NCBI GenBank assembly: GCA_903916555.1
Contig: CAIWXG010000365.1
Span: 1 to 56,886, forward strand
DNA from: an uncultured Bacteroidota bacterium
GTDB taxonomy: Bacteria > Bacteroidota > Bacteroidia > Chitinophagales > Chitinophagaceae
Length of the DNA stretch: 56,886 nucleotides
Reading direction: 5' to 3'
Shown: positions 16,239-48,249 of the stretch, piece by piece
Layout: every line of letters begins with the position of its first letter
How positions within the stretch are numbered: position 1 is the stretch's first letter
Position numbers and translations under genes: made by a program
The notes under the pieces: generated by a model
The model's input: the letters and a program-made list of their open reading frames with translations, nothing else
Told to the model about the DNA's origin: nothing
Databases searched by the model: none

Positions 16239-16919
16239 TTATTTGCTATAGCAATAGTTGTTAGTACCTGTACCTTCGCATTTAGGGCATACTATATACC
16301 ATTTGCCGTTTCCGCTGCAAATATTACAATCTGCATACTTTAAAACACGACCTTCGCCCATACATTTTTTACAAACAATTTCTTCTTTGTAGTGGCAAGT
16401 ACCGCAATTGTCGTGATGACTGTCGCAAGAATAATGAGTGCCACATGCATGATGACTACCGCAGCTTTCAAAATGATTACCGCAATCAGAATGATGGTCG
16501 CAGTCATTATGTTTATGAGCTACTCCTGCACCTTTTACTTTTACTTTTATATGGTTAGTTACATACTTTACTTTGCAATCATTGCAACGTTTTACATAAG
16601 TAACAGCATGCTCTTCGCAACATCTTGAATGCCAACCATCAAAATCGCAATCATCATGCCAATAATGGTCGCAATGTTCTGCCCAACCATGATGGTTGTA
16701 AGAAGAATAGTAATAGCAATCAGCATCACTACACATCATTCTGTGCTCTTCATCTGCTATAGAGCAAGAATTACCACAATGTTTCTTTTCGTTACAACTA
16801 GAATTTGAATGACATTTAACTGCTTTTTTGCATTGGGCAAAAGTACTGTTAAATAAGCCTGATACCATTGTGAACAAGAAAATGGCAATCAGTGATAAAA
16901 TTTTTACATTTTGCTTCAT
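16239..16919 (-). CDS. Secreted Cys/His-rich protein with a C-terminal DnaJ-type (CxxCxGxG) zinc-finger module
   Basis: Signal peptide (IAIFLFTMVSGLFNSTFAQ). 27 Cys and 22 His in 226 aa. Repeated C(G/D)xH(H) units (DCGNHFESCGSHHACGTHYSCDSHHDNCGTCH). C-terminus CKKCMGEG...CNICSGNG...CPKCEGTG. Confidence 0.75.
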   Translation of the reverse strand: MKQNVKILSLIAIFLFTMVSGLFNSTFAQCKKAVKCHSNSSCNEKKHCGNSCSIADEEHRMMCSDADCYYYSSYNHHGWAEHCDHYWHDDCDFDGWHSRCCEEHAVTYVKRCNDCKVKYVTNHIKVKVKGAGVAHKHNDCDHHSDCGNHFESCGSHHACGTHYSCDSHHDNCGTCHYKEEIVCKKCMGEGRVLKYADCNICSGNGKWYIVCPKCEGTGTNNYCYSK

Positions 16920-35535: not shown

Positions 35536-36609
35536 TTACTTACCCGTTGTCATTAAGTAAATCAATTGCATATCAAAATGAATGTCTTTACTTGCTTTTG
35601 AGTTGGGCTTTTTTACTTCTACAATTTCGGACATCAGATTAGCACAGCTACCCATAGAATGAAATTCAGTAGGTTCATATCCCAAATAAGTAAGAAAACT
35701 ATACTCTTCCTTAGCCCAAAGTGTAATATAAGGTCTTTTGCAAGTGCCATCAGCACCATACATCATGCCATTAAAATATTGATGTACTCTGTTTAAAAAT
35801 TTATTAGCCATTGCATCGTCCTTTTTTAGTCTGTAGAAATACATCATTTCTTTATTAAGACTGGGATTTAATGGATTTGTATTAATAATTAAATTACCCT
35901 TACTTATTGCCGTATCTAAATCTGATTGCATTCTTAATTCAGAAATAGCATTATAATCAAACGAATTATATGTTTTCTGTCTGGAGTACCCTACAATTAA
36001 CATATACATTTCGGCAGGAGTTAAACTATTATCATCTTTTAAGAACCTGCTTAATAATTTTTTATAGCTATTATAATTATTTGAATCCGCAAGAATAAAA
36101 AATAATGAATCAAATTTTGTTATAGTTGCAAAGTTTACTGTTGTATCTATAATAGTACTATTAGATATACCAATATCTCTAAGTTTATTTTCTCTATTAC
36201 GATTATCAAAAATTATTTTTAAATTATCTTGATATTTAACTATTTCTGCATCTGTAGGAAGATACTTTTTTGCTTTTATAAAAACCTCATTGGCATCATC
36301 GTATTCACGCAATTTATCATACAAATATTTACCATAATCTTTTTGCAACAATCCATTTGTTGAATCAATTTTAATAGCTTTTATATAAAAATCTTTTGCT
36401 GTAATACATTCTGATTTTATTTCAGCTAAATTAATTGCATGATGCCAATAGGGTAGGGAACTACCAGCATTTTTTCTTAATTCCTTTTGATAATGTTGCT
36501 CTTCTTTTTCTATTCTTTTTTTATTTTCTTTTTCGGCTTTTTCATCTTTAGCAAATGTAGCTGTTGAAAATAAAGTAAGTGAGAAAAGAATAATTAAGTA
36601 ATTTTTCAT
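35536..36609 (-). CDS. Secreted hypothetical protein (helical-repeat N-terminal half, DUF4919-like C-terminal half), 30 nt downstream of ccsBA
   Basis: Signal peptide (LFSTATFAKDE). The C-terminal GADGTCKRPYITLWAKEEYSFLTYLGY pattern is what I loosely associate with DUF4919 (weak recall). Confidence 0.55.
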   Translation of the reverse strand: MKNYLIILFSLTLFSTATFAKDEKAEKENKKRIEKEEQHYQKELRKNAGSSLPYWHHAINLAEIKSECITAKDFYIKAIKIDSTNGLLQKDYGKYLYDKLREYDDANEVFIKAKKYLPTDAEIVKYQDNLKIIFDNRNRENKLRDIGISNSTIIDTTVNFATITKFDSLFFILADSNNYNSYKKLLSRFLKDDNSLTPAEMYMLIVGYSRQKTYNSFDYNAISELRMQSDLDTAISKGNLIINTNPLNPSLNKEMMYFYRLKKDDAMANKFLNRVHQYFNGMMYGADGTCKRPYITLWAKEEYSFLTYLGYEPTEFHSMGSCANLMSEIVEVKKPNSKASKDIHFDMQLIYLMTTGK

Positions 36610-36639: not shown

Positions 36640-39600
36640 TTAGTCATCTGTATTTTTTCGTATAGACCTTTGTTTTATACCTGCGGCAATAATGAGAACA
36701 AAAACGGAGAAAATACTAATCCATGCCCACATTGGGAATACAGGTGTATCGCCGGCAGCATAACTATGTAAGCCCTTTGATAAATAATAATTTACCCCAA
36801 AAAAGGTCATTAGTACACTACTATAGCCTAATACTGCACTAATATTAAATACATATTCGCTTTTTAATTTTGGTACAAAACGCAAGTGTAGTACAATAGT
36901 ATAGGTAATAACTATTACTAATGCCCATGTTTCTTTAGCATCCCAGCCCCAATATTTACCCCATGATTCATTAGCCCATATACCACCTAAAAAGGTGCCT
37001 ACCGTTGCCAAAAACAAACCAATTGTAAGGTTCATTTCATTTATGTGCGACAGTTCGTTGGTAACAACATCTAAACGCTGGTGATTCTTTTTGTTTTTAA
37101 ATAAGTAAATAAACAGATTTATAAGACCTAAAATAAAACCTAAACCCAAGAAACCATAACTTATAGTAAGAGTAGCCACATGTATTACTAACCAATACGA
37201 CTTTAATACAGGTTGCAAATTGGTAAGTTGGGGGTCGTAGCTGCTATGGCTGGCTGTCATAAGTACAAAAAATGCTAGTAAAGTTGTTGCTGCAAGGGTA
37301 ATTTTAGAGTTTCTGATAAAAAAGAAACCAGCCAATAAACCACCCCAGGCTATTAATAATAACGCTTCATAACCTGTACTCCAAGGTGCATGACCTGTTA
37401 AATACCATCTTAAAATTAAACCATAAGTATGGTAAAGGAATGCACATATTAATAAGAATATAAAAATATTTAAAAGCCATTTTAAAATTATATTCTTTTT
37501 AGTATTTAGAATATCTATAAAAGCAAGTAACAATAATATAATACTTAACATTGCATAACAGCCATAGCAAAGAAAAATAAATATTTGAGATTTATTATAA
37601 TGTATTTCAAGATTTACTTTGCCTTCACTTGGTAAAAGATTAGCAGCAGAACTTTGCCTTTGCATACTAGCTATATAGCTTAATATCTTTTCAGGTCTTT
37701 CGTAATTTCCTGTTTTGGTGCCCTTATACAATTCTTGCAAGTATAAGCCCATAATGTTTCTATAGGTAAGTTCTCTTAGTTGCAAATCATCATTAAGTAT
37801 TTTTATACTGCCGGTTAGTAGTACAGTAGCCATAGAATCGTCCCAGCTTGTCCATGTATTATTTGGCGAACCTTGAATAGGGAATAATTTAAGCATACTA
37901 CCATTAAAAGTCATCATACAAATATTGGCACGCTCATCAACTTTAATAATTTCTTTGTCGAAAATATTTTGTTCAGATTGTTTTTTTCTAAATGAAGTTT
38001 CCGCAAAAGTTTTAAGTTTATAATTACCGCTTGCATCAAAGAAATTATTATAAGAAGCATATTTGCCATTTATACCCAAAATATCTTGTACAGATTTTTC
38101 TTTAATATAAATTATTTTTTGATCTTTCCAAAATTCTGCATTCAAAATCATATCCATAAATACTTGCATGGCATTCATTTTCCCTACACCTTCTATATCA
38201 AATTTGTCTTTGCGTGCTAATTTGTGCATAACATCGTAAGCCATTGTGTGTGCAGGTTCAAAACGACCATCATAAGTTTGTACTATTAAATGTGCAAATT
38301 TATCAGCTTGTGCTTCATTAATATGGCTTGTTGTTGTTTGTGCAAAGCTTAGGCTGCTAAGCCCTAATAATACTATTATGATTGCTGCTGTTTTTCTTGC
38401 TTGCCTTATATAGCGAATGCTCTTACTTAACAATATATATCTTGAATTACGATTAAACAGAGTTAGGAAAAAGCCTAATGCCATAAGAAAATAGCCTATA
38501 TATGAAACCCAAGTACCATAAAAATCATGGTTTACAGATAAAATTGTGCCTTGTTCGTCAGGGTCGTAAGAAGATTGAAAGAATCTGAAACCTTCATAAT
38601 CCAATACATTATTCATAAATATCTTTGTTTGTTTAGTTAAATTATTTCTTGTATCATTTAATGTAACATCGCTGGTAAAAGAAGAAGGACTCATAGAACC
38701 TGCATACCTATCTAAAATAAAACGGTTTAATGTTATTGAAAACGGTAAATCTCTCTCTTTAAGTCCATAAGCTATTTTAAATTTATAGCCATCTAAGTCC
38801 AAATCTTGGTATCTGGCTAAATAGCTGGAACCGCCTAATATTTGCACATCATGATTTTTGCCATTTATAGTTATTACAACACCAAGCGCATCTACACCCT
38901 TCTCATCGTCTTTGCTTGAAACAAGTTTTATTTTTGCTTTTTTATATAATTTTTTAAATACAAACACGCCTGCCGGTGTTTCGTGTAATGTTTTCTCTTT
39001 AAATTCTGTTTGAATATCCTTTTTTATTGTATCATTAAACATTTCAGGCATCTTTGTTCTTTTAATATCAAATGGAGATGTAATAAACGTTTTACCTTCT
39101 TTCTCTACAATATTAATTGCATCTGCTTTGCTTGGGTTATTAAAAGATATAGAAATGGGTCCCATATCATTTACCTCACCGTCTTTAAGATAAACAGATT
39201 CTCTTCCGTTTTTGCCCGGTAATACAAGTTCTATAATATCTATGCCATCAGCTACATTTTCCTCCATGCTATCTACAGCATTTTTAATATAGTTTTTAAA
39301 ATCTATATCAATTACTTTCTTGTCTGATGTTTCAATTTTATGGTGAAAATCATTTTTTGTAAACTGTCCCAAATGCACTAATAAATCAGATTGTTTATTA
39401 TCGGGTGTTAAAATTCTTAAATAAGTTTCTGAAGAGAAAAACGTTGTAGCCTTCTCACCTTGTCTTATATGCATGGTACCTGTATAACCATAATAACGGG
39501 TAATAGCAGAGCCTAAAATAATAATTATAAATGCAAAATGGAATAAAAAACCGGGGGCTTTCTTTTTGCTGAATAAATTATATTTAGGTAATTGCCCTAT

Positions 39601-39783
39601 AAAGTTTATGACTAACAATAGAAAAATAAATTCGAACCAGCGAGTATTATAAATTAATTCTCTTGCTGTATCAGTGTCAAATTTTTCTTCTACAAAAGTT
39701 GCCGAACCTATAACAATAGCAAGAATCAACAACAAAATCAATGTCATTCTTGATGAGAATAAAGTGTCTAATATCTTTTTCAT
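36640..39783 (-). CDS. ccsBA: System II cytochrome c biogenesis fusion protein (ResB/Ccs1 plus CcsA)
   Basis: N-terminal ResB-like TM plus a large periplasmic domain. The C-terminal CcsA has the WWD motif GGIWANESWGKYWGWDAKETWALV. ATG at 39783 (MKKILDTLFSSRM...) is preferred; the tracked ORF extends to 39813 and would overlap the fnr-like stop. Confidence 0.9.
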   Translation of the reverse strand: MKKILDTLFSSRMTLILLLILAIVIGSATFVEEKFDTDTARELIYNTRWFEFIFLLLVINFIGQLPKYNLFSKKKAPGFLFHFAFIIIILGSAITRYYGYTGTMHIRQGEKATTFFSSETYLRILTPDNKQSDLLVHLGQFTKNDFHHKIETSDKKVIDIDFKNYIKNAVDSMEENVADGIDIIELVLPGKNGRESVYLKDGEVNDMGPISISFNNPSKADAINIVEKEGKTFITSPFDIKRTKMPEMFNDTIKKDIQTEFKEKTLHETPAGVFVFKKLYKKAKIKLVSSKDDEKGVDALGVVITINGKNHDVQILGGSSYLARYQDLDLDGYKFKIAYGLKERDLPFSITLNRFILDRYAGSMSPSSFTSDVTLNDTRNNLTKQTKIFMNNVLDYEGFRFFQSSYDPDEQGTILSVNHDFYGTWVSYIGYFLMALGFFLTLFNRNSRYILLSKSIRYIRQARKTAAIIIVLLGLSSLSFAQTTTSHINEAQADKFAHLIVQTYDGRFEPAHTMAYDVMHKLARKDKFDIEGVGKMNAMQVFMDMILNAEFWKDQKIIYIKEKSVQDILGINGKYASYNNFFDASGNYKLKTFAETSFRKKQSEQNIFDKEIIKVDERANICMMTFNGSMLKLFPIQGSPNNTWTSWDDSMATVLLTGSIKILNDDLQLRELTYRNIMGLYLQELYKGTKTGNYERPEKILSYIASMQRQSSAANLLPSEGKVNLEIHYNKSQIFIFLCYGCYAMLSIILLLLAFIDILNTKKNIILKWLLNIFIFLLICAFLYHTYGLILRWYLTGHAPWSTGYEALLLIAWGGLLAGFFFIRNSKITLAATTLLAFFVLMTASHSSYDPQLTNLQPVLKSYWLVIHVATLTISYGFLGLGFILGLINLFIYLFKNKKNHQRLDVVTNELSHINEMNLTIGLFLATVGTFLGGIWANESWGKYWGWDAKETWALVIVITYTIVLHLRFVPKLKSEYVFNISAVLGYSSVLMTFFGVNYYLSKGLHSYAAGDTPVFPMWAWISIFSVFVLIIAAGIKQRSIRKNTDD

Positions 39784-39805
39784 ATATTTATAATTTTGTA
39801 CAAAT

Positions 39806-40501
39806 TTATACAAGATAATCTTGTATAATATGTTTTAATTTATCTAATTGTAAGATTGCTATTTTTTTATTTCGTTTTTCTATAAGTTTATCATTTTCAA
39901 AATCAGATAGTTGTCTTGATACTTGCTCTGCTGTTGTGCTTGTTAAATTGGCAATATCTTTTCTTGAAAAACAATCTTTTAGTTCGTTTTCAGCAGTAAT
40001 ACCAAAATTATCAACTAAATATATTAAAGCAGCTGCAATTTTCTCTCTTAAATTCATTGCAGAATTAGTAAGTAAGCGAGTTCCTGTTTTGCAATAAAGA
40101 TGTGAGTAATAATGCATTAAATCAAATACTATTATCGGATTTGTTCTAATCATATCATACAAAAGTATATTTTCAAAAAAGCAAACCAAAGTATCTTCTT
40201 TTGCAAATGCACCAATTGTATATACTTCATTTTCCATACTTATTGTTCCAAATGTCTGTCCATTTCCTATATATCTTATTGTTCTTCTTTTCTCATCGGG
40301 TAAAACTATATATTCTTCAACCATACCGTCTTGTATAAAGTAGATTCCCAATATGGAACTACCTGTCTCAAAAATTGGTTCTCCTTTATGATACAAATTT
40401 TGATACTTTTCTTTCTCCCAAATATCAATCATATCAGGGTAGTAATTCTTTTTAATGTAACACGAATTATTGGGGCAAAATTTGCATTCAACTTTTTTCA
40501 T
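39806..40501 (-). CDS. Crp/Fnr-family transcription factor with an FNR-type N-terminal cysteine cluster
   Basis: Cys6-x2-Cys9-x4-Cys14 plus Cys107 (93 residues after the third Cys, as for C29 to C122 in E. coli FNR). cNMP-like beta-roll. HTH with the E--SR recognition motif (TAEQVSRQL). Confidence 0.85.
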   Translation of the reverse strand: MKKVECKFCPNNSCYIKKNYYPDMIDIWEKEKYQNLYHKGEPIFETGSSILGIYFIQDGMVEEYIVLPDEKRRTIRYIGNGQTFGTISMENEVYTIGAFAKEDTLVCFFENILLYDMIRTNPIIVFDLMHYYSHLYCKTGTRLLTNSAMNLREKIAAALIYLVDNFGITAENELKDCFSRKDIANLTSTTAEQVSRQLSDFENDKLIEKRNKKIAILQLDKLKHIIQDYLV

Positions 40502-40630
40502 ATTAGCTATAAATTCTGTCTATTAGCTTACTATACAATTGGTTTTATGTTACTTATTTATTTAAATTTTTTTGCTCTGCAATATTACCATTTTGTATGT
40601 GCCTCTCTTATGAGTATTATCAGTATAAAC

Positions 40631-40646
40631 TATGATTATAATCATA
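40631..40646. promoter_or_regulatory. Perfect 16-bp palindrome TATGATTATAATCATA, an FNR-box-like site upstream of the fnr-like gene
   Basis: aTGAT-N4-ATCAt versus the FNR consensus TTGAT-N4-ATCAA. The centre is about 137 nt upstream of the fnr-like ATG. Confidence 0.4.
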
Positions 40647-40737
40647 ATTTATTTTATATAATATATAACTCTGGTTTGTATAAATTTAGCGAATTAGAAC
40701 TATGCAATATTTCTACATGCTTATTAAAATACATTAA

Positions 40738-40773
40738 AAATGCCCGTCAAGAGTATGACAAGCATTTTATATA
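40738..40773 (-). terminator. Putative intrinsic terminator after the 13-haem cytochrome gene
   Basis: Interrupted hairpin (7 bp + 2x2 internal loop + 4 bp, 6-nt loop) 13-48 nt downstream of the stop, with a T-run on the minus strand. Confidence 0.45.
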
Positions 40774-40785
40774 ATTGCAGTATGC

Positions 40786-42111
40786 TTATTTATCTTTTAA
40801 AACTGAATTTACTCTATCGTATTTTCTTTCTGTATGGCAACCTGGAGCACAAGAACCTCCGTTTTCTGTTGGTACATACTTCAAAGGCATTTCCCAGCTT
40901 CCAAACGGTGCTTTATCGTTTATAAGATTATCGTTCATTGAACCATGCGGATTATGACATATAGTACAACTTCTACCTTTTTCTCCATTTACATGCACAA
41001 AGTGCAAATTTTTATCGCCATTTCTAAAATTGGTAACAGTAGTTGTTTGTTTTTCCAGCAATTCGCTTTTATGGCAACTAAAACACAAGCCGAAACTTTC
41101 TTTGGTGGCTTGGGCGTAAGAACCAGCCGGAAAGGATTTGGTTAAAAGAAAAGGATTAGATGATGCATGTGGGTCGTGGCAACCAATACAACCTACTTTA
41201 TCTATAGCACCATGTACATCTTTACTTTTTTGTATTATCTGTTTTATATTTCCTATTTTTCTTGTTCCTACTACAATTGTTTTATCATGGCAATTTAGAC
41301 ACAATACATCGGGGTCTGCTATTAAAAACTTCTTTTGGTCGGATGCATGTGGTGAGTGGCAATTTAAACAAGATTTTTTATCGGTAACAGCACCATGCAC
41401 CAAAGTAGCTTTATCAATTTTCTTTTGCATATCATCATGGCAATAGATGCAAAGACTTTGTGGCTGTAAATCGAGCAATTTATTTTCTGTAGAACTATGA
41501 TGACTATGACAGTTTAAACAATTGTTCTGGAATGGAGGATGCACATTTGCCATTTTTATTTCCTCGCTTTGTTTTTTATGACATTTTAAACATAATGCCG
41601 GAGACTCTAAGTTTAAAAGTTTGCTATTGTCGGATTGGTGTGGGTCGTGGCATTTTACACATTCTCCTTTTGTTACCGGTTCGTGTTTTACTCTTTTGGT
41701 AGCAGATTCTAATTGATGACATTGCTTACATAAATCTGCTGGTGGATTCTTTTTCAATAAATTATTTTCAGGAGAGCTATGAGGGGTATGGCAATCTAAG
41801 CATTTACCTTTTTGTACCGGTGGGTGTACACTTTTCATTGTATTGTTTTCGTCATGGCATTTATAACATAGTGCAGGCACATCCAACACTAATTTAAAGC
41901 CTTTCACATCTTTAAGCGGATGTTGAGTACCGGTAGATTGATGACAATTATCGCAACCTTTTTTTACTGCATGGTGCACAACCTCTTGATTTGTTAAATT
42001 ACCATGACAAGAAATATTTGAACATCCTGTTTTAGATGTATCAAGTTGTGCTTTAACTGTAAATGCTATTGAAGAAAATACAGCCAATATGAATATTATT
42101 TTATTTCGCAT
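40786..42111 (-). CDS. Secreted multihaem c-type cytochrome (13 CXXCH plus CX4CH and CX3CH variants)
   Basis: Sec signal peptide (AFTVKAQ). Motifs: CDNCH, CYKCH, CLDCH, CKQCH, CVKCH, CLKCH, CLNCH, CIYCH, CLNCH, CLNCH, CIGCH, CFSCH, CTICH. Also CSNISCH and CAPGCH. Confidence 0.92.
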   Translation of the reverse strand: MRNKIIFILAVFSSIAFTVKAQLDTSKTGCSNISCHGNLTNQEVVHHAVKKGCDNCHQSTGTQHPLKDVKGFKLVLDVPALCYKCHDENNTMKSVHPPVQKGKCLDCHTPHSSPENNLLKKNPPADLCKQCHQLESATKRVKHEPVTKGECVKCHDPHQSDNSKLLNLESPALCLKCHKKQSEEIKMANVHPPFQNNCLNCHSHHSSTENKLLDLQPQSLCIYCHDDMQKKIDKATLVHGAVTDKKSCLNCHSPHASDQKKFLIADPDVLCLNCHDKTIVVGTRKIGNIKQIIQKSKDVHGAIDKVGCIGCHDPHASSNPFLLTKSFPAGSYAQATKESFGLCFSCHKSELLEKQTTTVTNFRNGDKNLHFVHVNGEKGRSCTICHNPHGSMNDNLINDKAPFGSWEMPLKYVPTENGGSCAPGCHTERKYDRVNSVLKDK

Positions 42112-42116
42112 AAGTA

Positions 42117-44096
42117 CTAATATTTAAACTTTTTAATAATTTGAATATAACCACCGGTGTAATTATTCTTTTGTACATCTAAATATACACGAGTATAAGA
42201 CTCTAAACCGGCATTAATTACAAGCTCTCTTAAAATTCTTGTTAGTTTTAGTTTATAAGAAAATAAATCTAAGTTTATTTCCCTTCCATGTTGGTAAGTA
42301 TAAATTACGTTTAAATCTAATTTTGTTCTTTGTGAAAATGAGTAAGATACTAACCCATTTAAATCTTTATAATTTCTATTAATTTCATTATTTGGCAATT
42401 TATTATAAATTCTTAAATTACCATTAATTGAATAGGCTAATCTTCCTCTATATCTACCTTGTAAAGTTGCATAATATCGGGTTAACTGATAAGGGTAAAG
42501 TGAACTTTCATAATCATCAATCTCAATACCGCCACTAATAAATTTATATTCAGACCTGATACCATATATTCTATGCGTTAGGTAATTCAAAAACATATTA
42601 TCTGAATTTTTTAAATTAAAATAATTACTTGTCAAAACCTTATAGTGCAATCCCAATAACCGTCTGAATAATGAAATATCAATTGAAGCATCGCTAATAC
42701 CCGCATCGTATTGATTATTACCCGGTTGTGTAGCTGTATAACTAATATAGACTGTACTATTATTTGAAATTTGTCCTCCGGGTTGCCTTTGTATTTCTAC
42801 ATAATTATTTCTGGAAACCAATATATAATCAAAATTAGGTTGGTAAGTAATAGTGCCTGTTACATCTCTAACAATAATACTTGCTAAATCAATATAAGGT
42901 AATTTCAGCATTGTTATTTGATTGTCATTAATTAGATACGACTCACTAACCACGTGCAATGTAACATCTTGACTTTGTCTATTGTCATGTGTTCTACTAT
43001 AACTGTAAGATAAAGAAAGTAGCCCGTTTTTAGGTAATTTTTTATTATACGAAATATTTGCACCTACGTTATAAAACGACTCTTTATAATCAGTTTCATC
43101 AGCATTGTTGTAATCACCTGTTACACCCAAATATAAACTTTCATAATACTGTCTATTAATTACAAAATTGGCATCGTGTTGGCTAAATTCTTGCGATGGC
43201 CTGTTTACATAATAAAAAGAATAACCACAATTAAAGTTTATTTTATAGGGCAGTTTTAAAAATAAGTTTTCAGCGATTCTAAGTTGCGTAAAGCTATCAA
43301 TTCCACGCTGGTTTATACCTAAAATATTAGAACTAAACCTGCAATTACCGGCTGAATCTAATAGATAACTATTATGTAATTCTACATTATCAGAAATATT
43401 TCTAGATGGACTCACATTATAATCTTGGCGAATATAGTCTCTATGCGAATAAACAAATTCATTTCTATCTCTAAATCTGAAAACTTTAGATACTCGGGCA
43501 TCAAAAGTTTTCTGGTCATATAAGAAATTTCTGCTTGTTTGTATCTCTTTTTGAGTCCAGTTACTCTCATTGTAAGCTAATAAAATTGGTAATACCTTAT
43601 TTGATAGAGAGAGATTACCACCAACAGTTTTACTTTCTGTTTTTATATCAGTTAAATTTTCCCTGCTGTCATAGCTTTGGTCAAAATTAGCAAAGGTAGT
43701 TAAAGTAATAGGTTTACCGGGAAATAAGCTTGTATTTAAATGTAAATTTTTTGCATTAATTACATCATACCTATTAGGAAATACCAAATATTGGTCTTGA
43801 TAAGACTGTGGTAAATAACCACCATCAACACCAATAGTTAGAAAATTGGGACTCCAGATATAACTGTATGTTCTAAGCACAATACCGCCATAATAGTTCT
43901 GTATTTTCGATTTATCAACAATTCCATTAGAAGATACGCCTGCTTGCCCATATAAGGCACCTACTTTTAAATCTCCCGAAACGGAGTTTAGATTCCATAA
44001 ACCCAAAGAAAAGATATTACTTGCATCTTGGGCATATATTTCTTTAGGCAATATTGCCAAAAAACACAATAATATAAATAATTTATTATTACGCAT
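42117..44096 (-). CDS. Large outer-membrane beta-barrel protein (porin-like), unknown family
   Basis: Signal peptide (LAILPKEIYAQD). Pervasive alternating hydrophobic/polar beta-strand pattern rich in Y/N/S/G. C-terminal ...IQIIKKFKY ends in an aromatic residue. Only 5 nt separate it from the next gene. Confidence 0.7.
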   Translation of the reverse strand: MRNNKLFILLCFLAILPKEIYAQDASNIFSLGLWNLNSVSGDLKVGALYGQAGVSSNGIVDKSKIQNYYGGIVLRTYSYIWSPNFLTIGVDGGYLPQSYQDQYLVFPNRYDVINAKNLHLNTSLFPGKPITLTTFANFDQSYDSRENLTDIKTESKTVGGNLSLSNKVLPILLAYNESNWTQKEIQTSRNFLYDQKTFDARVSKVFRFRDRNEFVYSHRDYIRQDYNVSPSRNISDNVELHNSYLLDSAGNCRFSSNILGINQRGIDSFTQLRIAENLFLKLPYKINFNCGYSFYYVNRPSQEFSQHDANFVINRQYYESLYLGVTGDYNNADETDYKESFYNVGANISYNKKLPKNGLLSLSYSYSRTHDNRQSQDVTLHVVSESYLINDNQITMLKLPYIDLASIIVRDVTGTITYQPNFDYILVSRNNYVEIQRQPGGQISNNSTVYISYTATQPGNNQYDAGISDASIDISLFRRLLGLHYKVLTSNYFNLKNSDNMFLNYLTHRIYGIRSEYKFISGGIEIDDYESSLYPYQLTRYYATLQGRYRGRLAYSINGNLRIYNKLPNNEINRNYKDLNGLVSYSFSQRTKLDLNVIYTYQHGREINLDLFSYKLKLTRILRELVINAGLESYTRVYLDVQKNNYTGGYIQIIKKFKY

Positions 44097-44125
44097 TCTC
44101 TATTTTTTTTATCAAATGACAATTA

Positions 44126-46060
44126 TCATTTAATTAATATTGAAATCTCAACTCTACGATTTTCCTGATGTTCTGCCTCTGTACATTCAATTCCGTCAGA
44201 ACACTTATTTTTTAATTTTGATTTTCCGAAACCCTTAATTTTTATCCTTTTCGGTGCTATCCCTTGGCTTAATAAATAATTCATTGCTGCCTGAGCTCTT
44301 TTGTCTGATAATTGTTGATTATAAACAACCGTACCTCTACTATCGGTATGTGCAGCCAAATAGGCATTTACTTCAGGATTCTGTTTAAGATGTTCTGCAA
44401 CTTTCTTTAAAGCAGCCATACCGGCAGAATTAATATCTGATTTTGCATATTCATAATATACAACAGAAAATAACTGAGCTGTTTCTTCATTGCTTAATGT
44501 TATTTGTTTGAAGCCTAATTCTGCCGAAGGAGAAGTAATTACAGTACTACCACCATTCATTTTCTTTTCCTTATAGTTTGGATTCATATTATAATACAAA
44601 ACAACATTCTGTGTATTATCGTTAGTATCTGTAAATGATAAAGTTTCATTTCCTTGTTTCATTTTTTCTAACATAAAATTACCTTTATCATCAACTTTAG
44701 CAATAGCTATAATGTCTCCTGTTTCATTTAATACTCTTACTCCTGTTCCTTTCTTGAAATAATAAACAGTACCTGCTAATTTAATTATAGAAAGATCTTT
44801 TGCAACATTTACATTATTAATAGAATTGCCGTTTAATGCATTTTCAACTGTCAAATTACTATCAATACTATTATTTACTGTTTTATTATTAGGTTTTGTT
44901 GTGTTATTCTCACCATTCACGCTTGCCTTATTGTTTATTGCTATACTATTATTTGAAGTGTCAATGTTTTTATTTATTTTATTTTCTACATTTGATGAAA
45001 TATCAGGATTTGTTTTACCGGAATCAATTAATTTATTTTCAATATTGTTATTGTTGGTTAGGTTGTTCTTGTTAGTCTCCGTTTTTGTATTACTTGCATA
45101 TTCATTTTGCAAACTATCGTCAGAGCCATACTCCCTTACAATAACTTTATTTGCTACTTCGTAAACAGATTTATCAAAATTAAATTTACCCTTACTATTC
45201 TTATTAATCTCATATAATACTTTGTCTTTATAATCTAATATTACCACTTTTGCACTATCCGGTAAATCTACTTTTGTTTTAAAAGTATAATTATCGCCAC
45301 CATGCACATTTGCAATAGAGAATCTACCATTTGCATCTGTAATAGAATTGCCTACTATTTGAAAATTCTGGTCATTATCTTGAATTATTATTTCTGTACC
45401 TGCTTTTATATCTCCGGGTTCTTTTACATATACTTGTGCAAACAAATGTTTTGATGCCAATTCATTTACTTTAGCTAAGCCTCCAAATTTTGAAGCCACA
45501 TTCTCTTTAAGTAAGTTTCTATTATTTCCGCCGTGAGGATTATGGCAAGTTGTACACTCTGCATCACCTATTCTTCTATGGTATTTATTATTAACTGCCA
45601 AAGATGTATTATGGCAATACAGGCATAAACTCTGCCCTGGTCTTATTAACAGTTTAGCATAAGGTGCTGAGTGTTGATTATGACATTTAGTACAATTGCC
45701 CGATGACACAGGCCCATGAACATACTTATAAGTCTCACTAAAATCTTTATGGCATTGATAACAAAGTGAAGGCATTTCCTTTACCAAATGGCGGTCTTCG
45801 GTATGGCATTTTTCACATTTCCGTTCCAGATATGGTTTGTGAATAAATATTTCCGGTACTTTCTTTTTAACATCTGTAGCATTGGTACTTAATTTGTTAT
45901 TTACGTTCTTATTTGTAGTTAATTCAGGGTGCAATGGCGGCACACCATCAAAAAAGATAGTAAGTGCCTTATTCCTTTGTTCTATGGAACATCCCCAAAA
46001 TACTGCCATTATTATAACTAAAATGCAATAAATAGCAGTACTATTTTGCTTCTTATTCAT
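44126..46060 (-). CDS. Pentahaem c-type cytochrome fused to CarboxypepD_reg-like domains, an Asn-rich linker and a C-terminal OmpA peptidoglycan-binding domain
   Basis: Possible lipoprotein signal (MAVFWGCS). CEKCH, CYQCH, CTKCH, CLYCH, CTTCH. DANGRFSIANV-type beta-sandwich. Roughly 100-aa N/K/T-rich low-complexity stretch. OmpA_C block AAHTDSRGTVVYNQQLSDKRAQAAMNYLLSQGI...NRRVEISI. Start is taken at ATG 46060 (MNKKQ...). Confidence 0.88.
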   Translation of the reverse strand: MNKKQNSTAIYCILVIIMAVFWGCSIEQRNKALTIFFDGVPPLHPELTTNKNVNNKLSTNATDVKKKVPEIFIHKPYLERKCEKCHTEDRHLVKEMPSLCYQCHKDFSETYKYVHGPVSSGNCTKCHNQHSAPYAKLLIRPGQSLCLYCHNTSLAVNNKYHRRIGDAECTTCHNPHGGNNRNLLKENVASKFGGLAKVNELASKHLFAQVYVKEPGDIKAGTEIIIQDNDQNFQIVGNSITDANGRFSIANVHGGDNYTFKTKVDLPDSAKVVILDYKDKVLYEINKNSKGKFNFDKSVYEVANKVIVREYGSDDSLQNEYASNTKTETNKNNLTNNNNIENKLIDSGKTNPDISSNVENKINKNIDTSNNSIAINNKASVNGENNTTKPNNKTVNNSIDSNLTVENALNGNSINNVNVAKDLSIIKLAGTVYYFKKGTGVRVLNETGDIIAIAKVDDKGNFMLEKMKQGNETLSFTDTNDNTQNVVLYYNMNPNYKEKKMNGGSTVITSPSAELGFKQITLSNEETAQLFSVVYYEYAKSDINSAGMAALKKVAEHLKQNPEVNAYLAAHTDSRGTVVYNQQLSDKRAQAAMNYLLSQGIAPKRIKIKGFGKSKLKNKCSDGIECTEAEHQENRRVEISILIK

Positions 46061-46064
46061 TGTA

Positions 46065-47138
46065 TTATTTTTTAGGCGTAAGAGCGCCATAAACGTTTAT
46101 TTTATCCGGACCATATTGATTAGATACAATTACCAAATATTTTAAATCAAAAGCCGGATCAACATATTTTTTAAAGTATTTTATGCCATCGTAGTCAATG
46201 GTTACTTTTACGGGTAACCACATATCTCCGGGTCCTTTATAAGAACCACCAAAAAACATAAGTAATTTACCATCTTTATTAAACATTTGTGTGTTCTCGA
46301 AACCTGCATCCACTACAAATAAATTAGATTCACGGTCGCAGGCAATACCTTTAGGGCGAACAAACTGACCTAAACCAACGCCATAAGTACCTACAAAGTT
46401 TAAATATTTGCCCTGGTGGTCAAAAACCTTAATTTTAAAATCTCCAAAATCAGTTATATATACTTTATCGTCTGTAATAAACAAGTTGTATGGCGAATAT
46501 AAGAAGCCATCATCCCCCTGCTCATACTGACCGAAATTGCGTAAGAATTTAAAAGTTTTCTTATCATATATATTAATTGTATGCTTAGACGGATTGGTAA
46601 CCCACAATTCATTACCATAAACCATTAAATCAGTAGGTTTAAAGTCTCCAGTATCATTAATTCTGCTTTTAAAGTTATGTAAACTATCAAAAATAACTAC
46701 TTCGTGTCGCCCTTGGTCGCCTACGTAAATGTATTCATTAGTATCTACAAAGCAACTTAAAGGGTTTTTTAATTGTCCACTACCGGCTGGTGCGAATGTT
46801 GTATATTTTTTCTTAGGAAAATCAATAATTTCCAATGCACCGGCACCAGGGTCGCATACATATAAAATATTATTACGCATTGCGGTTCCATAAGGCTTAT
46901 TTATGTATCTAATCTCTTCTTTACCTAATACAAAAGTTGAAAACTTAGACCTTTTACCTAAAAAATTGGACCCATTTATTGTAGTAAGATATTGTATTCT
47001 TGCCGTATCCGGTGGTGCGGGATACAATATAGATTCCTTTTTAATTTCAGTTGATTTTTTATGAAAAATACTGCAAGAAACCAAATCTATGCTAATAGCA
47101 AAGATTAACACGAAAATCAAATATTTTTTCTTTTTCAT
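46065..47138 (-). CDS. NHL-repeat six-bladed beta-propeller lipoprotein (first gene of the cytochrome operon)
   Basis: Lipobox IDLVSCS. Repeated ..P.G(I/T)A.D....L(Y/F)V.D.G...(I/V).(I/V)(F/Y)D blades. Confidence 0.8.
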   Translation of the reverse strand: MKKKKYLIFVLIFAISIDLVSCSIFHKKSTEIKKESILYPAPPDTARIQYLTTINGSNFLGKRSKFSTFVLGKEEIRYINKPYGTAMRNNILYVCDPGAGALEIIDFPKKKYTTFAPAGSGQLKNPLSCFVDTNEYIYVGDQGRHEVVIFDSLHNFKSRINDTGDFKPTDLMVYGNELWVTNPSKHTINIYDKKTFKFLRNFGQYEQGDDGFLYSPYNLFITDDKVYITDFGDFKIKVFDHQGKYLNFVGTYGVGLGQFVRPKGIACDRESNLFVVDAGFENTQMFNKDGKLLMFFGGSYKGPGDMWLPVKVTIDYDGIKYFKKYVDPAFDLKYLVIVSNQYGPDKINVYGALTPKK

Positions 47139-47293
47139 TTTGAATGTTTTTTATTTTTTCAATTAAACTTCTTCAAAATACGATATAAATCTATATTGTA
47201 TTACAAAAGAATAATTTCAATTTATTTTTATTTTAAAATGTTACAAATAACACAGTATATGTAAAACACTTTGGTATAGTCTATAAACTTCCG

Positions 47294-47301
47294 CAAAATT
47301 A
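47294..47301 (-). promoter_or_regulatory. Candidate -7 box (TAatTTTG) for the cytochrome operon
   Basis: The minus strand reads TAATTTTG. It would place a transcription start near 47289, about 150 nt upstream of the NHL gene ATG. Such octamers are not rare in AT-rich DNA. Confidence 0.3.
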
Positions 47302-47323
47302 TTATTGGACATGATTCTTTTCA

Positions 47324-47337
47324 ATGACTTTAGTCAT
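47324..47337. promoter_or_regulatory. Candidate Crp/Fnr operator ATGAC-TTTA-GTCAT
   Basis: Perfect 5-4-5 inverted repeat. The centre (47330.5) lies roughly 41-43 nt upstream of the start inferred from the TAatTTTG box, which is the classic class II activator position. Confidence 0.4.
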
Positions 47338-47345
47338 CTTTATTT

Positions 47346-47359
47346 ATGACAATATTCAT
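47346..47359. promoter_or_regulatory. Second candidate Crp/Fnr operator ATGAC-AATA-TTCAT
   Basis: ATGA-N6-TCAT core, centred 22 bp (two helical turns) from the 47324 site. Confidence 0.3.
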
Positions 47360-47493
47360 ATAATTTATACTAATTCATGAATAATATTGCATCGTGGAAT
47401 AGAGGCAATCAACACAAAATTTTATTTTATTTTTGTTTATTCAAGCTTAAGTATTCAAACTAAACATTTTATTTCATCTAATAAAACAAAGAA

Positions 47494-48249
47494 ATGAAAA
47501 AGACAACTTTTTTAAAAGCAGTAGTTCTTGCATTATTGATTATTTTAAATATTACATTTTTAAATTCAAAAACATGTTTTGCTTTCTTTGAAGGTAAAAA
47601 AATTGTTTCACATAAAATTCTTGTTCAAGAAGTAGTGCAAACATCTAATTATACTTATCTGCATGGTAAAGTTAATGATTCAACTGATTCTTGGCTTGCA
47701 GTGCCAACAATGGAAGCAAAAGTGGGTGATACTTATTATTATTCCGGTGGCTTACCTATGACAAAATTTGTAAGTAAAGAACTTAACCGAACTTTTGACT
47801 TAGTATTATTTTTAGGTGAAGTAAGTACAGAGCCTATAAGTGATGTGAGTGCGAAACCGGTAAAAGACACTTCTATTTCAGGGCATCATGCCGATGCACA
47901 GGTATATAAAAGAAAAGCTGTTGCTGATACAAAAAAAGATTTGAAGATAGATGTACCTGCTGACTGCATTACGATAGCACAGCTATTATCAAAAAAAGAT
48001 GATTATGCAGGCAAAACAGTGAAAATAAAGGGACAAGTAACTAAATATAATGCTGGTATAATGTATAAAAACTGGATTCATTTGCAAGACGGTACAGACT
48101 TAAATGGAAAATATGATTTGGTTATTACTTCACCATCTGAAGTAAAAGTGGGGGATATTGTAATTTTGGAAGGATTAGTAAGCGTGAATAAAGATTTTGG
48201 ATACGGCTATGCTTTTGATATTATGATTGAAAATGCAATTGTAAAGTAA
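47494..48249 (+). CDS. Secreted two-domain protein with a C-terminal OB-fold-like (BOF/tRNA_anti-like) module, unknown function
   Basis: Signal peptide. The C-terminal GKTVKIKGQVTKYNAGIMYKNWIHLQDGTD...VKVGDIVILEGLVSVNKDFGYGYAFDIMIENA resembles periplasmic OB-fold proteins (weak recall). It is divergent from the cytochrome operon. Confidence 0.5.
   Translation: MKKTTFLKAVVLALLIILNITFLNSKTCFAFFEGKKIVSHKILVQEVVQTSNYTYLHGKVNDSTDSWLAVPTMEAKVGDTYYYSGGLPMTKFVSKELNRTFDLVLFLGEVSTEPISDVSAKPVKDTSISGHHADAQVYKRKAVADTKKDLKIDVPADCITIAQLLSKKDDYAGKTVKIKGQVTKYNAGIMYKNWIHLQDGTDLNGKYDLVITSPSEVKVGDIVILEGLVSVNKDFGYGYAFDIMIENAIVK

What the first reader, a model, noticed from the sequence alone, without database searches (positions are those of the whole stretch)
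36640..47493. Candidate oxygen-regulated porin-cytochrome electron conduit in a T9SS Bacteroidota genome
Gene order on the minus strand is: divergent promoter region (47139-47493); NHL-propeller lipoprotein; pentahaem cytochrome fused to an OmpA anchor; 659-aa outer-membrane beta-barrel; 13-haem secreted cytochrome; terminator-like hairpin; FNR-type regulator; CcsBA haem-maturation fusion; a secreted unknown protein. Gaps between the four operon genes are 4, 29 and 5 nt, so they are almost certainly co-translated. Together they carry 18 canonical CXXCH sites. The combination of a barrel, a periplasmic multihaem protein and a lipid- or wall-anchored multihaem protein follows the same logic as MtrCAB, PioAB and the Geobacter porin-cytochrome complexes. 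The parts differ, though: there is an OmpA-anchored cytochrome and an NHL propeller, and I saw no MtrB-like N-terminal CXXC. A dedicated maturation system and an O2-sensing regulator sit immediately downstream, and FNR-like boxes lie in the promoters. I cannot judge novelty without a database search, but I do not recognise this gene combination as a described system.
Basis: partly seen in the sequence, partly recalled or inferred. Interest (0 to 1): 0.85.

Follow-up and report, generated by a model that had tools for sequence, protein, structure and literature searches.

The report
Uncharacterised outer-membrane porin–cytochrome conduit in Bacteroidota
This operon encodes a very large outer-membrane barrel, two multihaem cytochromes and a propeller lipoprotein that most likely carry respiratory electrons across the outer membrane; the same unnamed cassette is conserved in at least 80 species of Bacteroidota, Ignavibacteriota and Calditrichota.

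Summary

The barrel has no Pfam or NCBIfam family. An AlphaFold model (pLDDT 86.8) gives about 30 strands and no plug. Its family is large: 599 clusters at 50% identity reach E≤1e-30.

In 80 species-level genomes the barrel sits in the same cassette. A small lipoprotein cytochrome lies upstream in 59 of 68 loci and an NHL lipoprotein in 53 of 58. A 7–20-haem cytochrome lies downstream in 70 of 77.

The only solved-structure relative of the 13-haem protein is MtrA (E 4e-13). Two atypical motifs align with canonical haem sites in homologues, so it probably binds 15 haems.

A porin–cytochrome conduit is therefore well supported, by inference only. It is not a member of the Mtr family.

Three points need correcting:
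- Both lipoproteins probably face the periplasm.
- The "FNR boxes" occur at chance level, although the regulator keeps four FNR-type cysteines.
- The window carries a reduced form. It lacks the 11-haem, 4-haem and second NHL genes found in most relatives.

I rate it a new variant of a known kind, interest about 0.6.

The parts
47139..47493 (.). Divergent intergenic region of 355 bp between the operon and the 251-aa gene; the presumed promoters lie here.
   Evidence: No FNR/CRP-type palindrome better than two mismatches. The sigma-70 scan finds no more sites than shuffled sequence does, and that scan does not model Bacteroidota promoters.
46065..47138 (-). Six-bladed NHL beta-propeller lipoprotein of 357 aa; lipobox LVSC, Cys22.
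   Evidence: Pfam DUF5128 and NHL. PDB TRIM71 NHL domain, E 7e-29. Present directly upstream of the small cytochrome in 53 of 58 testable loci. Seventy-two positions are at least 90% conserved in 66 orthologues, and there is no conserved His cluster.
44126..46060 (-). Pentahaem lipoprotein cytochrome of 644 aa. In order: lipobox FWGC, conserved FFDGVP motif, five CXXCH sites, beta-sandwich region(s), an Asn-rich linker, and a C-terminal OmpA-like peptidoglycan-binding domain.
   Evidence: HTD and NQQLSDKRA motifs. The haem domain hits MtrA (6r2q_A) at E 5.8e-6. Orthologues in about 80 loci are lipoproteins of 170-330 aa with 5 or 9 haems. The OmpA extension occurs in only 6 loci.
42117..44096 (-). 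Outer-membrane beta-barrel of 659 aa: signal peptide, about 30 strands, no plug, a conserved 57-residue insert at residues 390-446, and a C-terminal aromatic residue (…KKFKY).
   Evidence: AF2 pLDDT 86.8. No Pfam, NCBIfam or PDB sequence hit. Foldseek returns only generic large barrels; MtrB has TM 0.39. The family has 2083 clusters at E<=1e-3 and 599 at E<=1e-30.
40786..42111 (-). Secreted multihaem cytochrome of 441 aa with 13 CXXCH plus one CX4CH and one CX3CH, so probably 15 haems. It is built of paired-CXXCH units related to MtrA/DmsE.
   Evidence: The only PDB sequence hit is 6r2q_A, E 4e-13. The atypical motifs align with canonical CXXCH in homologues. It has 32 His residues, enough for bis-His ligation.
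40737..40768 (-). Terminator-like hairpin 18 nt downstream of the cytochrome stop codon.
   Evidence: 13 pairs, 4 of them G-C, followed by a T-rich tail.
39806..40501 (-). Crp/FNR-family regulator of 231 aa with an FNR-type cysteine set (C6, C9, C14, C107).
   Evidence: Pfam cNMP_binding and HTH_Crp_2. The four Cys residues are conserved in all five homologues found in related loci. The NCBIfam FNR model scores 54 bits against a cut-off of 228.
36640..39813 (-). CcsBA (ResB-CcsA) fusion, the System II cytochrome c haem lyase. The likely true start is the ATG at 39783.
   Evidence: Pfam ResB and Cytochrom_C_asm. TIGR03144 scores 164 bits. A homologue lies within 8 kb of the barrel in 24 of 80 loci.
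35536..36609 (-). Secreted DUF4919 protein. It is linked to the cassette only in the nearest relatives, so it is probably not part of the system.
   Evidence: present in 2 of 80 loci.
47494..48249 (+). Divergently transcribed secreted protein of 251 aa and unknown function, with a weak GW/SH3-like N-terminal domain and an OB-fold-like C-terminal domain. It is a recurrent neighbour of the cassette.
   Evidence: Homologues occur in 33 of 80 loci, often in tandem copies. No significant Pfam, NCBIfam or PDB match.

Best explanation
The four co-transcribed genes encode a porin-cytochrome complex that carries electrons across the outer membrane.

Proposed working model (inferred, not shown):
- The barrel of about 30 strands forms a sheath wider than MtrB.
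- A haem wire is threaded into the barrel from the periplasm. This is either the 13(+2)-haem MtrA-like cytochrome or the haem domain of the pentahaem lipoprotein.
- The wire's outer haem is exposed at the cell surface, as in MtrAB without MtrC.
- The pentahaem lipoprotein and the NHL propeller lipoprotein sit on the periplasmic face of the outer membrane.
- Together with the barrel they form the core of the complex, present in nearly every locus where it can be scored. They probably dock on the barrel's conserved 57-residue insert.
- In this lineage the pentahaem protein has gained an OmpA domain that ties the complex to peptidoglycan.
- The long cytochrome bridges the periplasm.

The most likely physiological role is delivery of respiratory electrons to extracellular or insoluble acceptors, such as Fe(III) or humic substances, when oxygen is scarce. 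Expression would be controlled by the adjacent Fe-S-type FNR homologue. Haem attachment would be carried out by the neighbouring CcsBA.

Shown here: gene content, haem motifs, lipoboxes, the barrel fold prediction, homology to MtrA, and conserved synteny.

Inferred: complex formation, which cytochrome is threaded, protein orientation, direction of electron flow, the electron acceptor, and regulation.
For: Operon structure: gaps of 4, 29 and 5 nt, followed by a terminator-like hairpin.

Haem content: 18 canonical haem motifs sit in two adjacent ORFs, against one in the rest of the window.

Barrel: about 30 strands at pLDDT 86.8, with a signal peptide, a C-terminal aromatic residue and no plug. 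By the standard barrel-geometry relation (n=30, S about 32) the C-alpha diameter is about 54 Å. The same formula gives about 47 Å for the 26-strand MtrB, which houses MtrA. This is my calculation, not a tool result.

Long cytochrome: its only relative among solved structures is MtrA of the Mtr complex, E 4e-13. It makes partial DmsE-family and MtrC-domain matches.

Synteny: 80 loci from Bacteroidota, Ignavibacteriota and Calditrichota. A small lipoprotein cytochrome lies upstream in 59 of 68, an NHL protein in 53 of 58, and a 7-20-haem cytochrome downstream in 70 of 77.

Long-cytochrome requirement: among 51 loci with full flanks, none lacks both the downstream long cytochrome and the 11-haem module.

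Conserved insert: the insert stays invariant even in the loci that lack the downstream cytochrome.

Periplasmic orientation of the lipoproteins: the lipoboxes are followed by no acidic export signal. The peptidoglycan-binding motif is intact. No T9SS C-terminal domain was detected in the cluster proteins, whereas two other proteins in the window have one.

Regulator: four conserved FNR-type cysteines.
Against: There is no experimental evidence for any member of this family.

No component is demonstrably exposed at the cell surface. If nothing reaches the outside, the complex could be purely periplasmic.

No inner-membrane quinol dehydrogenase is encoded in the window.

The Foldseek match to MtrB is generic (TM 0.39, alongside TonB-dependent receptors and LptD), and there is no sequence similarity to MtrB.

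Ignavibacteriaceae loci (L059, L069, L081) and L009 keep the barrel but lack the downstream cytochrome. The identity of the threaded protein is therefore unclear.

The FNR binding sites are not above chance, and the regulator is linked to the cassette in only 5 of 80 loci.

In Desulfovibrio ferrophilus, deleting cytochrome genes in clusters that pair NHL proteins with multihaem cytochromes gave no Fe(III)-reduction defect (PMC9769857). Those clusters have no porin, and I did not test whether they are homologous to this one.
Confidence: 0.62

Rival explanations
1. The architecture is the same, but electrons flow inward. The complex oxidises extracellular Fe(II), reduced humics or minerals and passes the electrons to periplasmic carriers and a terminal oxidase, as proposed for MtoAB, PioAB and the Uet cluster.
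For: Porin-cytochrome conduits work in either direction in known systems. The parts list of the full form of the cassette (tetrahaem cytochrome, large barrel, two NHL proteins, an undecahaem cytochrome, and a haem lyase next door) resembles the Uet cluster, which is proposed for electron uptake (bioRxiv 10.1101/2022.05.06.490989). Many carriers are MAGs from stratified lakes, where Fe(II) and reduced humics meet oxygen (record titles).
Against: An FNR-type regulator is more typical of genes induced under oxygen limitation. The carriers are heterotrophic Bacteroidota, and no autotrophy or oxidase genes are linked to the cassette. Homology to the Uet proteins could not be tested.
Confidence: 0.18
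2. This is a periplasmic redox module that does not conduct electrons through the membrane. Both cytochromes and the propeller stay in the periplasm, tethered to the outer membrane and peptidoglycan. The barrel is a wide channel that admits a soluble or colloidal acceptor, such as chelated Fe(III), polysulfide or humic quinones, or else it is only an anchor.
For: Neither lipoprotein has a surface-export signal, and the OmpA domain must reach peptidoglycan. No cytochrome has a T9SS sorting domain. Some lineages lack the downstream cytochrome but keep the barrel.
Against: A 30-strand barrel with no plug and only short loops would be a dangerously large open pore unless a protein fills it. The barrel family was found in every case next to multihaem cytochromes. 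The long cytochrome is homologous to the barrel-inserted MtrA.
Confidence: 0.15
3. The barrel has nothing to do with the cytochromes. It could serve polysaccharide, LPS or protein export and merely share an operon with them.
For: Foldseek also lists LptD, TonB-dependent receptors and ushers at similar scores.
Against: There is no sequence match to any such family. The barrel is invariably adjacent to cytochromes across three phyla. It has no plug and no N-terminal jellyroll domain.
Confidence: 0.03

Closest known systems
MtrCAB / MtoAB / PioAB porin-cytochrome complexes (structure 6R2Q)
   Same: A large plug-less barrel is encoded next to a secreted multihaem cytochrome that is a sequence relative of MtrA (E 4e-13). 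The logic is the same: a haem wire sheathed by a barrel. MtrB is among the top fold matches.
   Different: The barrel shows no sequence similarity to MtrB and has about 30 strands rather than 26. The cytochrome has 13-15 haems rather than 10 and scores below the DmsE-family cut-off, 147 against 192 bits. The window encodes no MtrC/OmcA-type surface decahaem lipoprotein. The extra partners, an NHL propeller lipoprotein and a periplasm-facing pentahaem lipoprotein fused to OmpA, have no Mtr counterpart.
Geobacter Pcc (OmbB-OmaB-OmcB) and the Ext clusters; the divergent 'Pcc' of Ignavibacterium album (IALB_1837-1840; Shi et al. 2014, PMC4245776)
   Same: The gene order is porin followed by a periplasmic multihaem cytochrome, with lipoprotein cytochromes nearby. 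Many relatives of this cassette carry an 8-haem downstream cytochrome of about 293-311 aa, the same haem count as OmaB. I. album is reported to have a 14-haem, 400-aa periplasmic partner. [quoted passage not shown]
   Different: Pcc porins are predicted to have 18-22 strands (PMC4245776), against about 30 here. The lipoprotein cytochrome here appears to face the periplasm. The Ignavibacterium locus I could retrieve (L081) has the order NHL, 11-haem, 4-haem, NHL, 5-haem, barrel, with no downstream cytochrome. That does not match the published IALB_1837-1840 layout. Homology to OmbB or IALB_1839 could not be tested because no sequences were available.
Uet (undecahaem electron transfer) cluster of 'Ca. 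Tenderia electrophaga' (bioRxiv 10.1101/2022.05.06.490989)
   Same: The parts list of the full form of this cassette matches: a tetrahaem cytochrome, a large barrel (UetC is predicted to have 28 strands), two NHL propellers, an undecahaem 'doubled-CXXCH' cytochrome next to an NHL gene, and System II haem-lyase genes alongside.
   Different: The window lacks the undecahaem and tetrahaem genes that define Uet. No trihaem c7 proteins, cupredoxin or PPIase are present. The hosts are Gammaproteobacteria and the proposed function is electron uptake. Sequence homology was not tested.
Desulfovibrio ferrophilus DFE_0448-0451 / DFE_0461-0465 clusters (PMC9769857; included in FeGenie, PMC7005843)
   Same: [quoted passage not shown]
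   Different: According to the authors of PMC9769857, the D. ferrophilus genome encodes no apparent porin-cytochrome conduit. Deletions of the cytochrome genes gave no Fe(III)-reduction phenotype. Here the barrel is the constant centrepiece.

Membership tests
Mtr/Mto/Pio porin-cytochrome family | Periplasmic decahaem cytochrome of the MtrA/DmsE family (TIGR03508) | tested here: not met
   TIGR03508 scores 147.5 bits against a cut-off of 192.2, in four partial stretches. The protein has 13 canonical and 2 atypical haem motifs rather than 10. It is homologous at superfamily level: PDB 6r2q_A, E 4e-13.
Mtr/Mto/Pio porin-cytochrome family | MtrB/PioB-type 26-strand barrel | tested here: not met
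   No Pfam family matched the barrel. A profile of 27 homologues found no MtrB chain in the PDB even at E<=10. Foldseek gives TM 0.39 to 6r2q_B, no better than to unrelated large barrels. The barrel has about 30 strands and no N-terminal CXXC.
Mtr/Mto/Pio porin-cytochrome family | Surface decahaem lipoprotein MtrC/OmcA (optional; absent from MtoAB and PioAB) | tested here: not met
   The window encodes no such protein. Only sub-domain matches to PF22113 occur inside the 13-haem protein, at 43 bits. The 11-haem protein with PF22113 matches (54 bits) exists in related loci but not in this window.
Geobacter Pcc (OmbB-OmaB-OmcB) | Porin with 18-22 strands, homologous to OmbB | not testable with these tools
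   No OmbB sequence or model was available. On size the barrel differs: 659 aa and about 30 strands, against 18-22 predicted strands (PMC4245776).
Geobacter Pcc (OmbB-OmaB-OmcB) | Octahaem periplasmic OmaB plus a surface lipoprotein cytochrome OmcB | tested here: inconclusive
   The downstream cytochrome has 8 haems in 25 related loci but 13 here. The lipoprotein cytochrome has no surface-export signal and carries a peptidoglycan-binding domain. Homology was not tested.
Uet cluster | Undecahaem UetJ and tetrahaem UetA | tested here: not met
   The window has no other multihaem ORF. Proteins of about 11 haems and of 4 haems occur in 54 and 61 of 80 related loci respectively. Their homology to UetJ and UetA was not tested.
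Uet cluster | NHL propeller proteins and a large barrel (UetC) in the same cluster | tested here: inconclusive
   Both kinds of protein are present, but no Uet sequences were available for comparison.
FNR subgroup of Crp/FNR regulators | cNMP-binding-type sensor domain plus a Crp-type HTH | tested here: met
   PF00027 at 1e-12 and PF13545 at 2.6e-13.
FNR subgroup of Crp/FNR regulators | Four cysteines for a [4Fe-4S] cluster: an N-terminal CX2CX4-5C plus one in the beta-roll | tested here: met
   C6, C9, C14 and C107 are conserved in all five homologues. Cluster binding itself was not tested. The NCBIfam FNR model scores 54 bits against a cut-off of 228.
FNR subgroup of Crp/FNR regulators | Cognate TTGAT-N4-ATCAA sites in the target promoters | tested here: not met
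   The best matches have two mismatches, a quality that occurs 73 times in the window. The binding site in Bacteroidota may differ from this consensus.
System II cytochrome c synthase (CcsBA) | Fused ResB/CcsB and CcsA domains with a WWD motif | tested here: met
   PF05140 and PF01578. TIGR03144 scores 164 bits, just under its cut-off of 187.6. The sequence contains WGKYWGWD.
OmpA-like peptidoglycan-binding domain (Pal/PorE type) | OmpA_C fold with the HTD…NxxLSxxRA peptidoglycan-binding motif | tested here: met
   PF00691 at 1e-16. PDB Pal at E 3e-14 and the OmpA-family chain 6top at E 2.8e-13. HTD at residue 571 and NQQLSDKRA at residue 581.

The most novel reading that the evidence does not exclude
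This would be the founding example of a porin-cytochrome family found so far in the Bacteroidota, Ignavibacteriota and Calditrichota, with an architecture unlike Mtr or Pcc. The core would be a barrel of about 30 strands, a periplasm-facing pentahaem lipoprotein and an NHL propeller lipoprotein. A haem wire of adjustable length (8 to more than 15 haems) threaded through the barrel would be the only part to reach the cell surface. The system would then need neither T2SS nor T9SS export. It would be the main route for extracellular electron transfer in Bacteroidota, including lake and sediment heterotrophs not regarded as electroactive, and in this lineage it would be switched on by an FNR-type oxygen sensor.
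Probability: 0.35. Interest if true: 0.78.

Novelty: new variant of a known kind. Interest (0 to 1): 0.6.

Why it matters
Bacteroidota are abundant heterotrophs in lakes, sediments, wastewater and guts, and they are not usually counted among electroactive bacteria.

This barrel family is large. It reaches at least 90 species representatives in the genome scan, and 599 clusters at 50% identity reach E≤1e-30. It has no Pfam or NCBIfam model, so annotation based on those libraries returns nothing for it. I found no paper that describes it. If the family really moves electrons across the outer membrane, Fe(III), Mn(IV) and humic respiration (or oxidation) by this superphylum has been underestimated. 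That would affect carbon and greenhouse-gas budgets in humic lakes.

The system also offers a simple natural series for studying how wire length is tuned. Homologues differ by gain or loss of paired-CXXCH units in the middle of the protein. It also raises the question of how a conduit is assembled without a secreted surface cytochrome.

Cultured carriers exist in the genus Aestuariivivens, so the hypothesis can be tested directly.

Tried and rejected
1. FNR boxes. A scan for TTGAT-N4-ATCAA in both intergenic regions found only matches at chance level, so I dropped them as evidence.

2. Sigma-70 promoter scan. It found no more sites than shuffled sequence and is not suited to Bacteroidota.

3. 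Word-indexed protein searches. One search returned only 35 relatives. One search, which used a wider alignment, returned the same set and was effectively wasted. The exhaustive HMM search showed that the family is much larger.

4. Link to the published Ignavibacterium album Pcc cluster. I retrieved an Ignavibacterium family member (P0192, locus L081). It comes from a MAG and its gene layout does not match IALB_1837-1840, so the question stays open.

5. Cluster look-up of ten weaker family members. This gave almost no names, apart from a hypothetical protein of Aestuariivivens sp. NBU2969.

6. Barrel profile against PDB sequences. Nothing relevant was found.

7. The 251-aa neighbour. A profile search of the PDB and Pfam scans of 26 homologues gave only weak GW and OB-fold hints.

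8. A catalytic role for the NHL propeller. Conservation analysis shows structural Gly, Asp and Pro positions and the lipobox, but no His or Cys metal site, so I rejected that reading as unsupported.

9. Correlation between long wire and missing 11-haem module. The idea that 13-14-haem wires occur only where the 11-haem module is absent fails, because several loci have both.

10. Literature searches. None found a paper describing this cassette as a family. Two papers mention unnamed putative PCCs in Bacteroidetes MAGs.

11. Second structure job. I did not use it. Only sequences from the window or from the search for homologous proteins may be submitted, and all three of those searches went on the barrel. 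The cytochromes could therefore only have been folded without an alignment.

Full report

Yes. Mechanical ORF listing gives the following genes on the minus strand:

| Gene product | Coordinates | Length |
|---|---|---|
| NHL protein | 46065-47138 | 357 aa |
| Cytochrome-OmpA protein | 44126-46090 | 654 aa |
| Barrel | 42117-44096 | 659 aa |
| Long cytochrome | 40786-42111 | 441 aa |
| Crp/FNR regulator | 39806-40501 | 231 aa |
| ResB-CcsA fusion | 36640-39813 | 1057 aa |
| DUF4919 protein | 35536-36609 | 357 aa |

A 251-aa gene diverges from the operon at 47494-48249 (+).

The second ATG of the cytochrome-OmpA gene (46060, giving 644 aa) matches the N-termini of homologues.

There are 5 and 13 CXXCH motifs in the two cytochromes. 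All other six-frame ORFs of 60 aa or more in the 56.9-kb window hold a single CXXCH between them. A hairpin with a 13-bp stem and a T-rich tail follows the long cytochrome gene.

Pfam and NCBIfam confirm NHL/DUF5128, Paired_CXXCH plus OmpA, Paired_CXXCH with partial DmsE, Crp/FNR, and ResB plus CcsA. They return nothing for the barrel. Two other window proteins carry T9SS sorting domains, so the host is a T9SS-bearing Bacteroidota.

The one element that does not hold up is the "FNR-like boxes". The best matches in the two intergenic regions have two mismatches. The window contains 73 matches of that quality.

**2. What the parts are**

*Barrel.* AlphaFold2, run on 27 homologues, gives a confident model (mean pLDDT 86.8, pTM 0.66). 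It has 30 long antiparallel strands, very short connections and no plug. A 57-residue insert lies between strands 18 and 19, at residues 390-446.

That insert is the most conserved part of the family. D423, Y424, R437, P439, G440, G441 and I443 are invariant. If the N-terminus is periplasmic, strand parity places the insert on the periplasmic side. This is inference.

The protein starts with a signal peptide and ends in …FKY, and it has no CXXC. Foldseek against the PDB returns only generic large barrels at TM 0.3-0.4: Cir, PirA, MtrB (rank 3, TM 0.39) and LptD. A family profile finds no PDB chain by sequence.

*Long cytochrome.* Its only sequence relative among solved structures is chain A of 6R2Q, which is MtrA, at E 4e-13. 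An alignment with homologues shows that its CX4CH (residue 30) and CX3CH (residue 421) occupy columns that hold canonical CXXCH in other members. It therefore probably binds 15 haems. Its 32 histidines are enough for bis-His ligation. Homologues with 8, 10 or 14 motifs differ by blocks of paired-CXXCH units in the middle of the protein.

*Pentahaem protein.* It is a lipoprotein (…FWGC). After the lipid-anchor Cys come a conserved FFDGVP motif, five haem sites, beta-sandwich region(s), a linker of about 110 residues that is Asn-rich (32 Asn), and an OmpA_C domain. The OmpA_C domain keeps the HTD…NQQLSDKRA peptidoglycan-binding signature.

*NHL protein.* It is also a lipoprotein (…LVSC). Neither lipoprotein has the acidic stretch after the Cys that marks surface-exposed lipoproteins in Bacteroidota (established knowledge; sequences). 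None of the four proteins has a T9SS C-terminal domain. Together with the peptidoglycan-binding domain, this places both lipoproteins on the periplasmic face of the outer membrane. This too is inference.

*Regulator.* Cys6, Cys9, Cys14 and Cys107 are conserved in all five homologues found in related loci. This is the FNR-type layout.

**3. Comparative genomics**

The word-indexed search found 35 barrel homologues, all unannotated. The exhaustive profile search found 2083 clusters at 50% identity with E≤1e-3, and 599 with E≤1e-30.

A scan of one genome per GTDB species found 90 carriers, of which 80 were fetched. They include Flavobacteriaceae, Bacteroidales, Lentimicrobiaceae, Chitinophagaceae, Cyclobacteriaceae, Ignavibacteriaceae and Calditrichia. 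One is an isolate, Aestuariivivens sediminicola MTV5-3. Other Aestuariivivens proteins appear.

I called ORFs in all 80 loci and searched them with the window proteins. Wherever the flanks allow a test, the results are as follows.

| Feature | Loci with the feature |
|---|---|
| Small lipoprotein cytochrome (5 or 9 haems) directly upstream of the barrel | 59 of 68 |
| NHL lipoprotein upstream of that | 53 of 58 |
| Cytochrome with 7-20 CXXCH motifs directly downstream of the barrel | 70 of 77 |
| About 4-haem protein of roughly 210 aa | 61 of 80 |
| Second NHL gene | 49 of 80 |
| About 11-haem protein of roughly 560 aa | 54 of 80 |

The 11-haem protein scores above the Pfam cut-off for MtrC/MtrF domain II/IV.

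Among 51 loci with full flanks, 40 have both the downstream long cytochrome and the 11-haem module. Eight have only the former; this group includes the window's clade. Three have only the latter (two Ignavibacteriaceae loci and L009). None lacks both.

The window and its nearest relatives (L001-L005, L045) therefore carry a reduced cassette. Those relatives also share the OmpA extension, which occurs in 6 loci, and L001-L003 share the FNR gene, which occurs in 5 loci.

A homologue of the divergent 251-aa gene occurs in 33 of 80 loci, and CcsBA in 24 of 80.

**4. Mechanism**

The best explanation is a porin-cytochrome conduit (confidence about 0.6). The barrel, the pentahaem lipoprotein and the NHL lipoprotein form the core, present in nearly every locus where the flanks allow scoring. 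At least one long cytochrome always accompanies them.

Standard barrel geometry for n=30 strands gives a C-alpha diameter of about 54 Å. The same formula gives about 47 Å for the 26-strand MtrB, which encloses MtrA. This is my calculation.

No component shows a recognised route to the cell surface. The simplest model is therefore MtrAB-like: a haem wire threaded from the periplasm exposes its last haem outside. The two lipoproteins dock on the periplasmic side, plausibly on the conserved insert. In this lineage they also staple the complex to peptidoglycan.

Which cytochrome is threaded, the direction of electron flow, the acceptor and the inner-membrane donor are all unknown. No quinol dehydrogenase is encoded in the window.

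The rival explanations are:
- the same structure working in the uptake direction, about 0.18;
- a purely periplasmic redox module with the barrel as a solute channel, about 0.15;
- an unrelated barrel, about 0.03, which the synteny effectively excludes.

**5. Comparison with known systems**

*Mtr/Mto/Pio.* The cassette works like these systems but is not a member of the family. The barrel has no sequence similarity to MtrB. The cytochrome scores below the DmsE-family cut-off and has a different haem count. There is no MtrC.

*Geobacter Pcc.* These porins are predicted to be much smaller, with 18-22 strands (PMC4245776). Shi et al. listed a divergent "Pcc" in Ignavibacterium album with a 14-haem periplasmic partner. 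The Ignavibacterium locus I could fetch (L081) contains a member of the present barrel family, but in a layout that does not match the published one. The link is unresolved.

*Uet.* The Uet cluster of Ca. Tenderia comprises a tetrahaem cytochrome, a 28-strand barrel, two NHL proteins, an undecahaem cytochrome and adjacent ccsAB (bioRxiv 10.1101/2022.05.06.490989). Its parts list resembles the full form of this cassette. This is a lead, not a test, because no Uet sequences were available. The window also lacks the undecahaem and tetrahaem genes.

*D. ferrophilus.* The DFE clusters pair NHL proteins with multihaem cytochromes but have no porin. Deleting the cytochrome genes gave no Fe(III)-reduction phenotype (PMC9769857).

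*Earlier mentions.* Lake-metagenome studies have noted unnamed "other putative PCCs" in Bacteroidetes MAGs (PMC6344600 and its Table S2; bioRxiv 10.1101/2020.04.01.018762). I found no paper that defines or tests this family.

**6. Verdict**

This is a new variant of a known kind of system. The barrel family is uncharacterised, unannotated and widespread, and its partner set is distinctive. The window holds a reduced, OmpA-tethered form of the cassette.

Interest is about 0.6. A specialist would find a conduit family spread across the Bacteroidota, Ignavibacteriota and Calditrichota noteworthy and directly testable in cultured Aestuariivivens. New candidate porin-cytochrome systems are, however, predicted from genomes fairly often, and everything here is inference from sequence.

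Noticed in passing
window 47494-48249 (+): A secreted 251-aa protein of unknown function, divergently transcribed from the operon. It belongs to a family that recurs within 8 kb of the barrel in 33 of 80 related loci, often as 2-3 tandem copies. It shows only weak hints of a GW/SH3-like N-terminal domain and an OB-fold C-terminal domain, and has no Pfam, NCBIfam or PDB match.
   Followed up: partly
window 40786-42111 (-) and homologues in L001-L080: Haem-wire length in this family changes by gain or loss of paired-CXXCH units in the middle of the protein (8, 10, 13 or 14 canonical motifs). The atypical CX4CH and CX3CH sites align with canonical sites in homologues, so the window protein probably binds 15 haems.
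   Followed up: yes
window 42117-44096 (-), protein residues 390-446: The most conserved stretch of the barrel is a 57-residue insert between strands 18 and 19 (…DY…EIQRxPGGxI…). It is invariant even in the Ignavibacteriaceae loci that lack the downstream cytochrome, which makes it a candidate docking site for one of the two core lipoproteins.
   Followed up: partly
L059, L069, L081 (Ignavibacteriaceae) and L009: These loci keep NHL, 9-11-haem, 4-haem, NHL, 5-haem and barrel genes but have no cytochrome gene after the barrel. No locus with full flanks lacks both the downstream cytochrome and the 11-haem module (0 of 51).
   Followed up: partly
window 16239-16919 (-): A secreted 226-aa protein that is very rich in Cys and His. 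It ends in DnaJ-type CXXCXGXG zinc-finger repeats and has no Pfam family. It holds the only other CXXCH in the window, which probably does not bind haem.
   Followed up: no
window 22887-26774 (-) and 28310-29779 (-): Two T9SS cargo proteins with Por_Secre_tail sorting domains. The larger one also has seven CHU_C-associated Ig-like repeats and a GEVED domain.
   Followed up: no
window 8871-12251 (+) and 12394-14070 (+): Two adjacent hybrid histidine kinases. The first combines CHASE3, GAF, HisKA, HATPase and three receiver domains. The second has HisKA, HATPase and two receiver domains. I looked for no link to the cytochrome operon.
   Followed up: no
window 32286-33989 (-): A 567-aa ORF with a hydrophobic, aromatic-rich N-terminal region and no Pfam match.
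   Followed up: no
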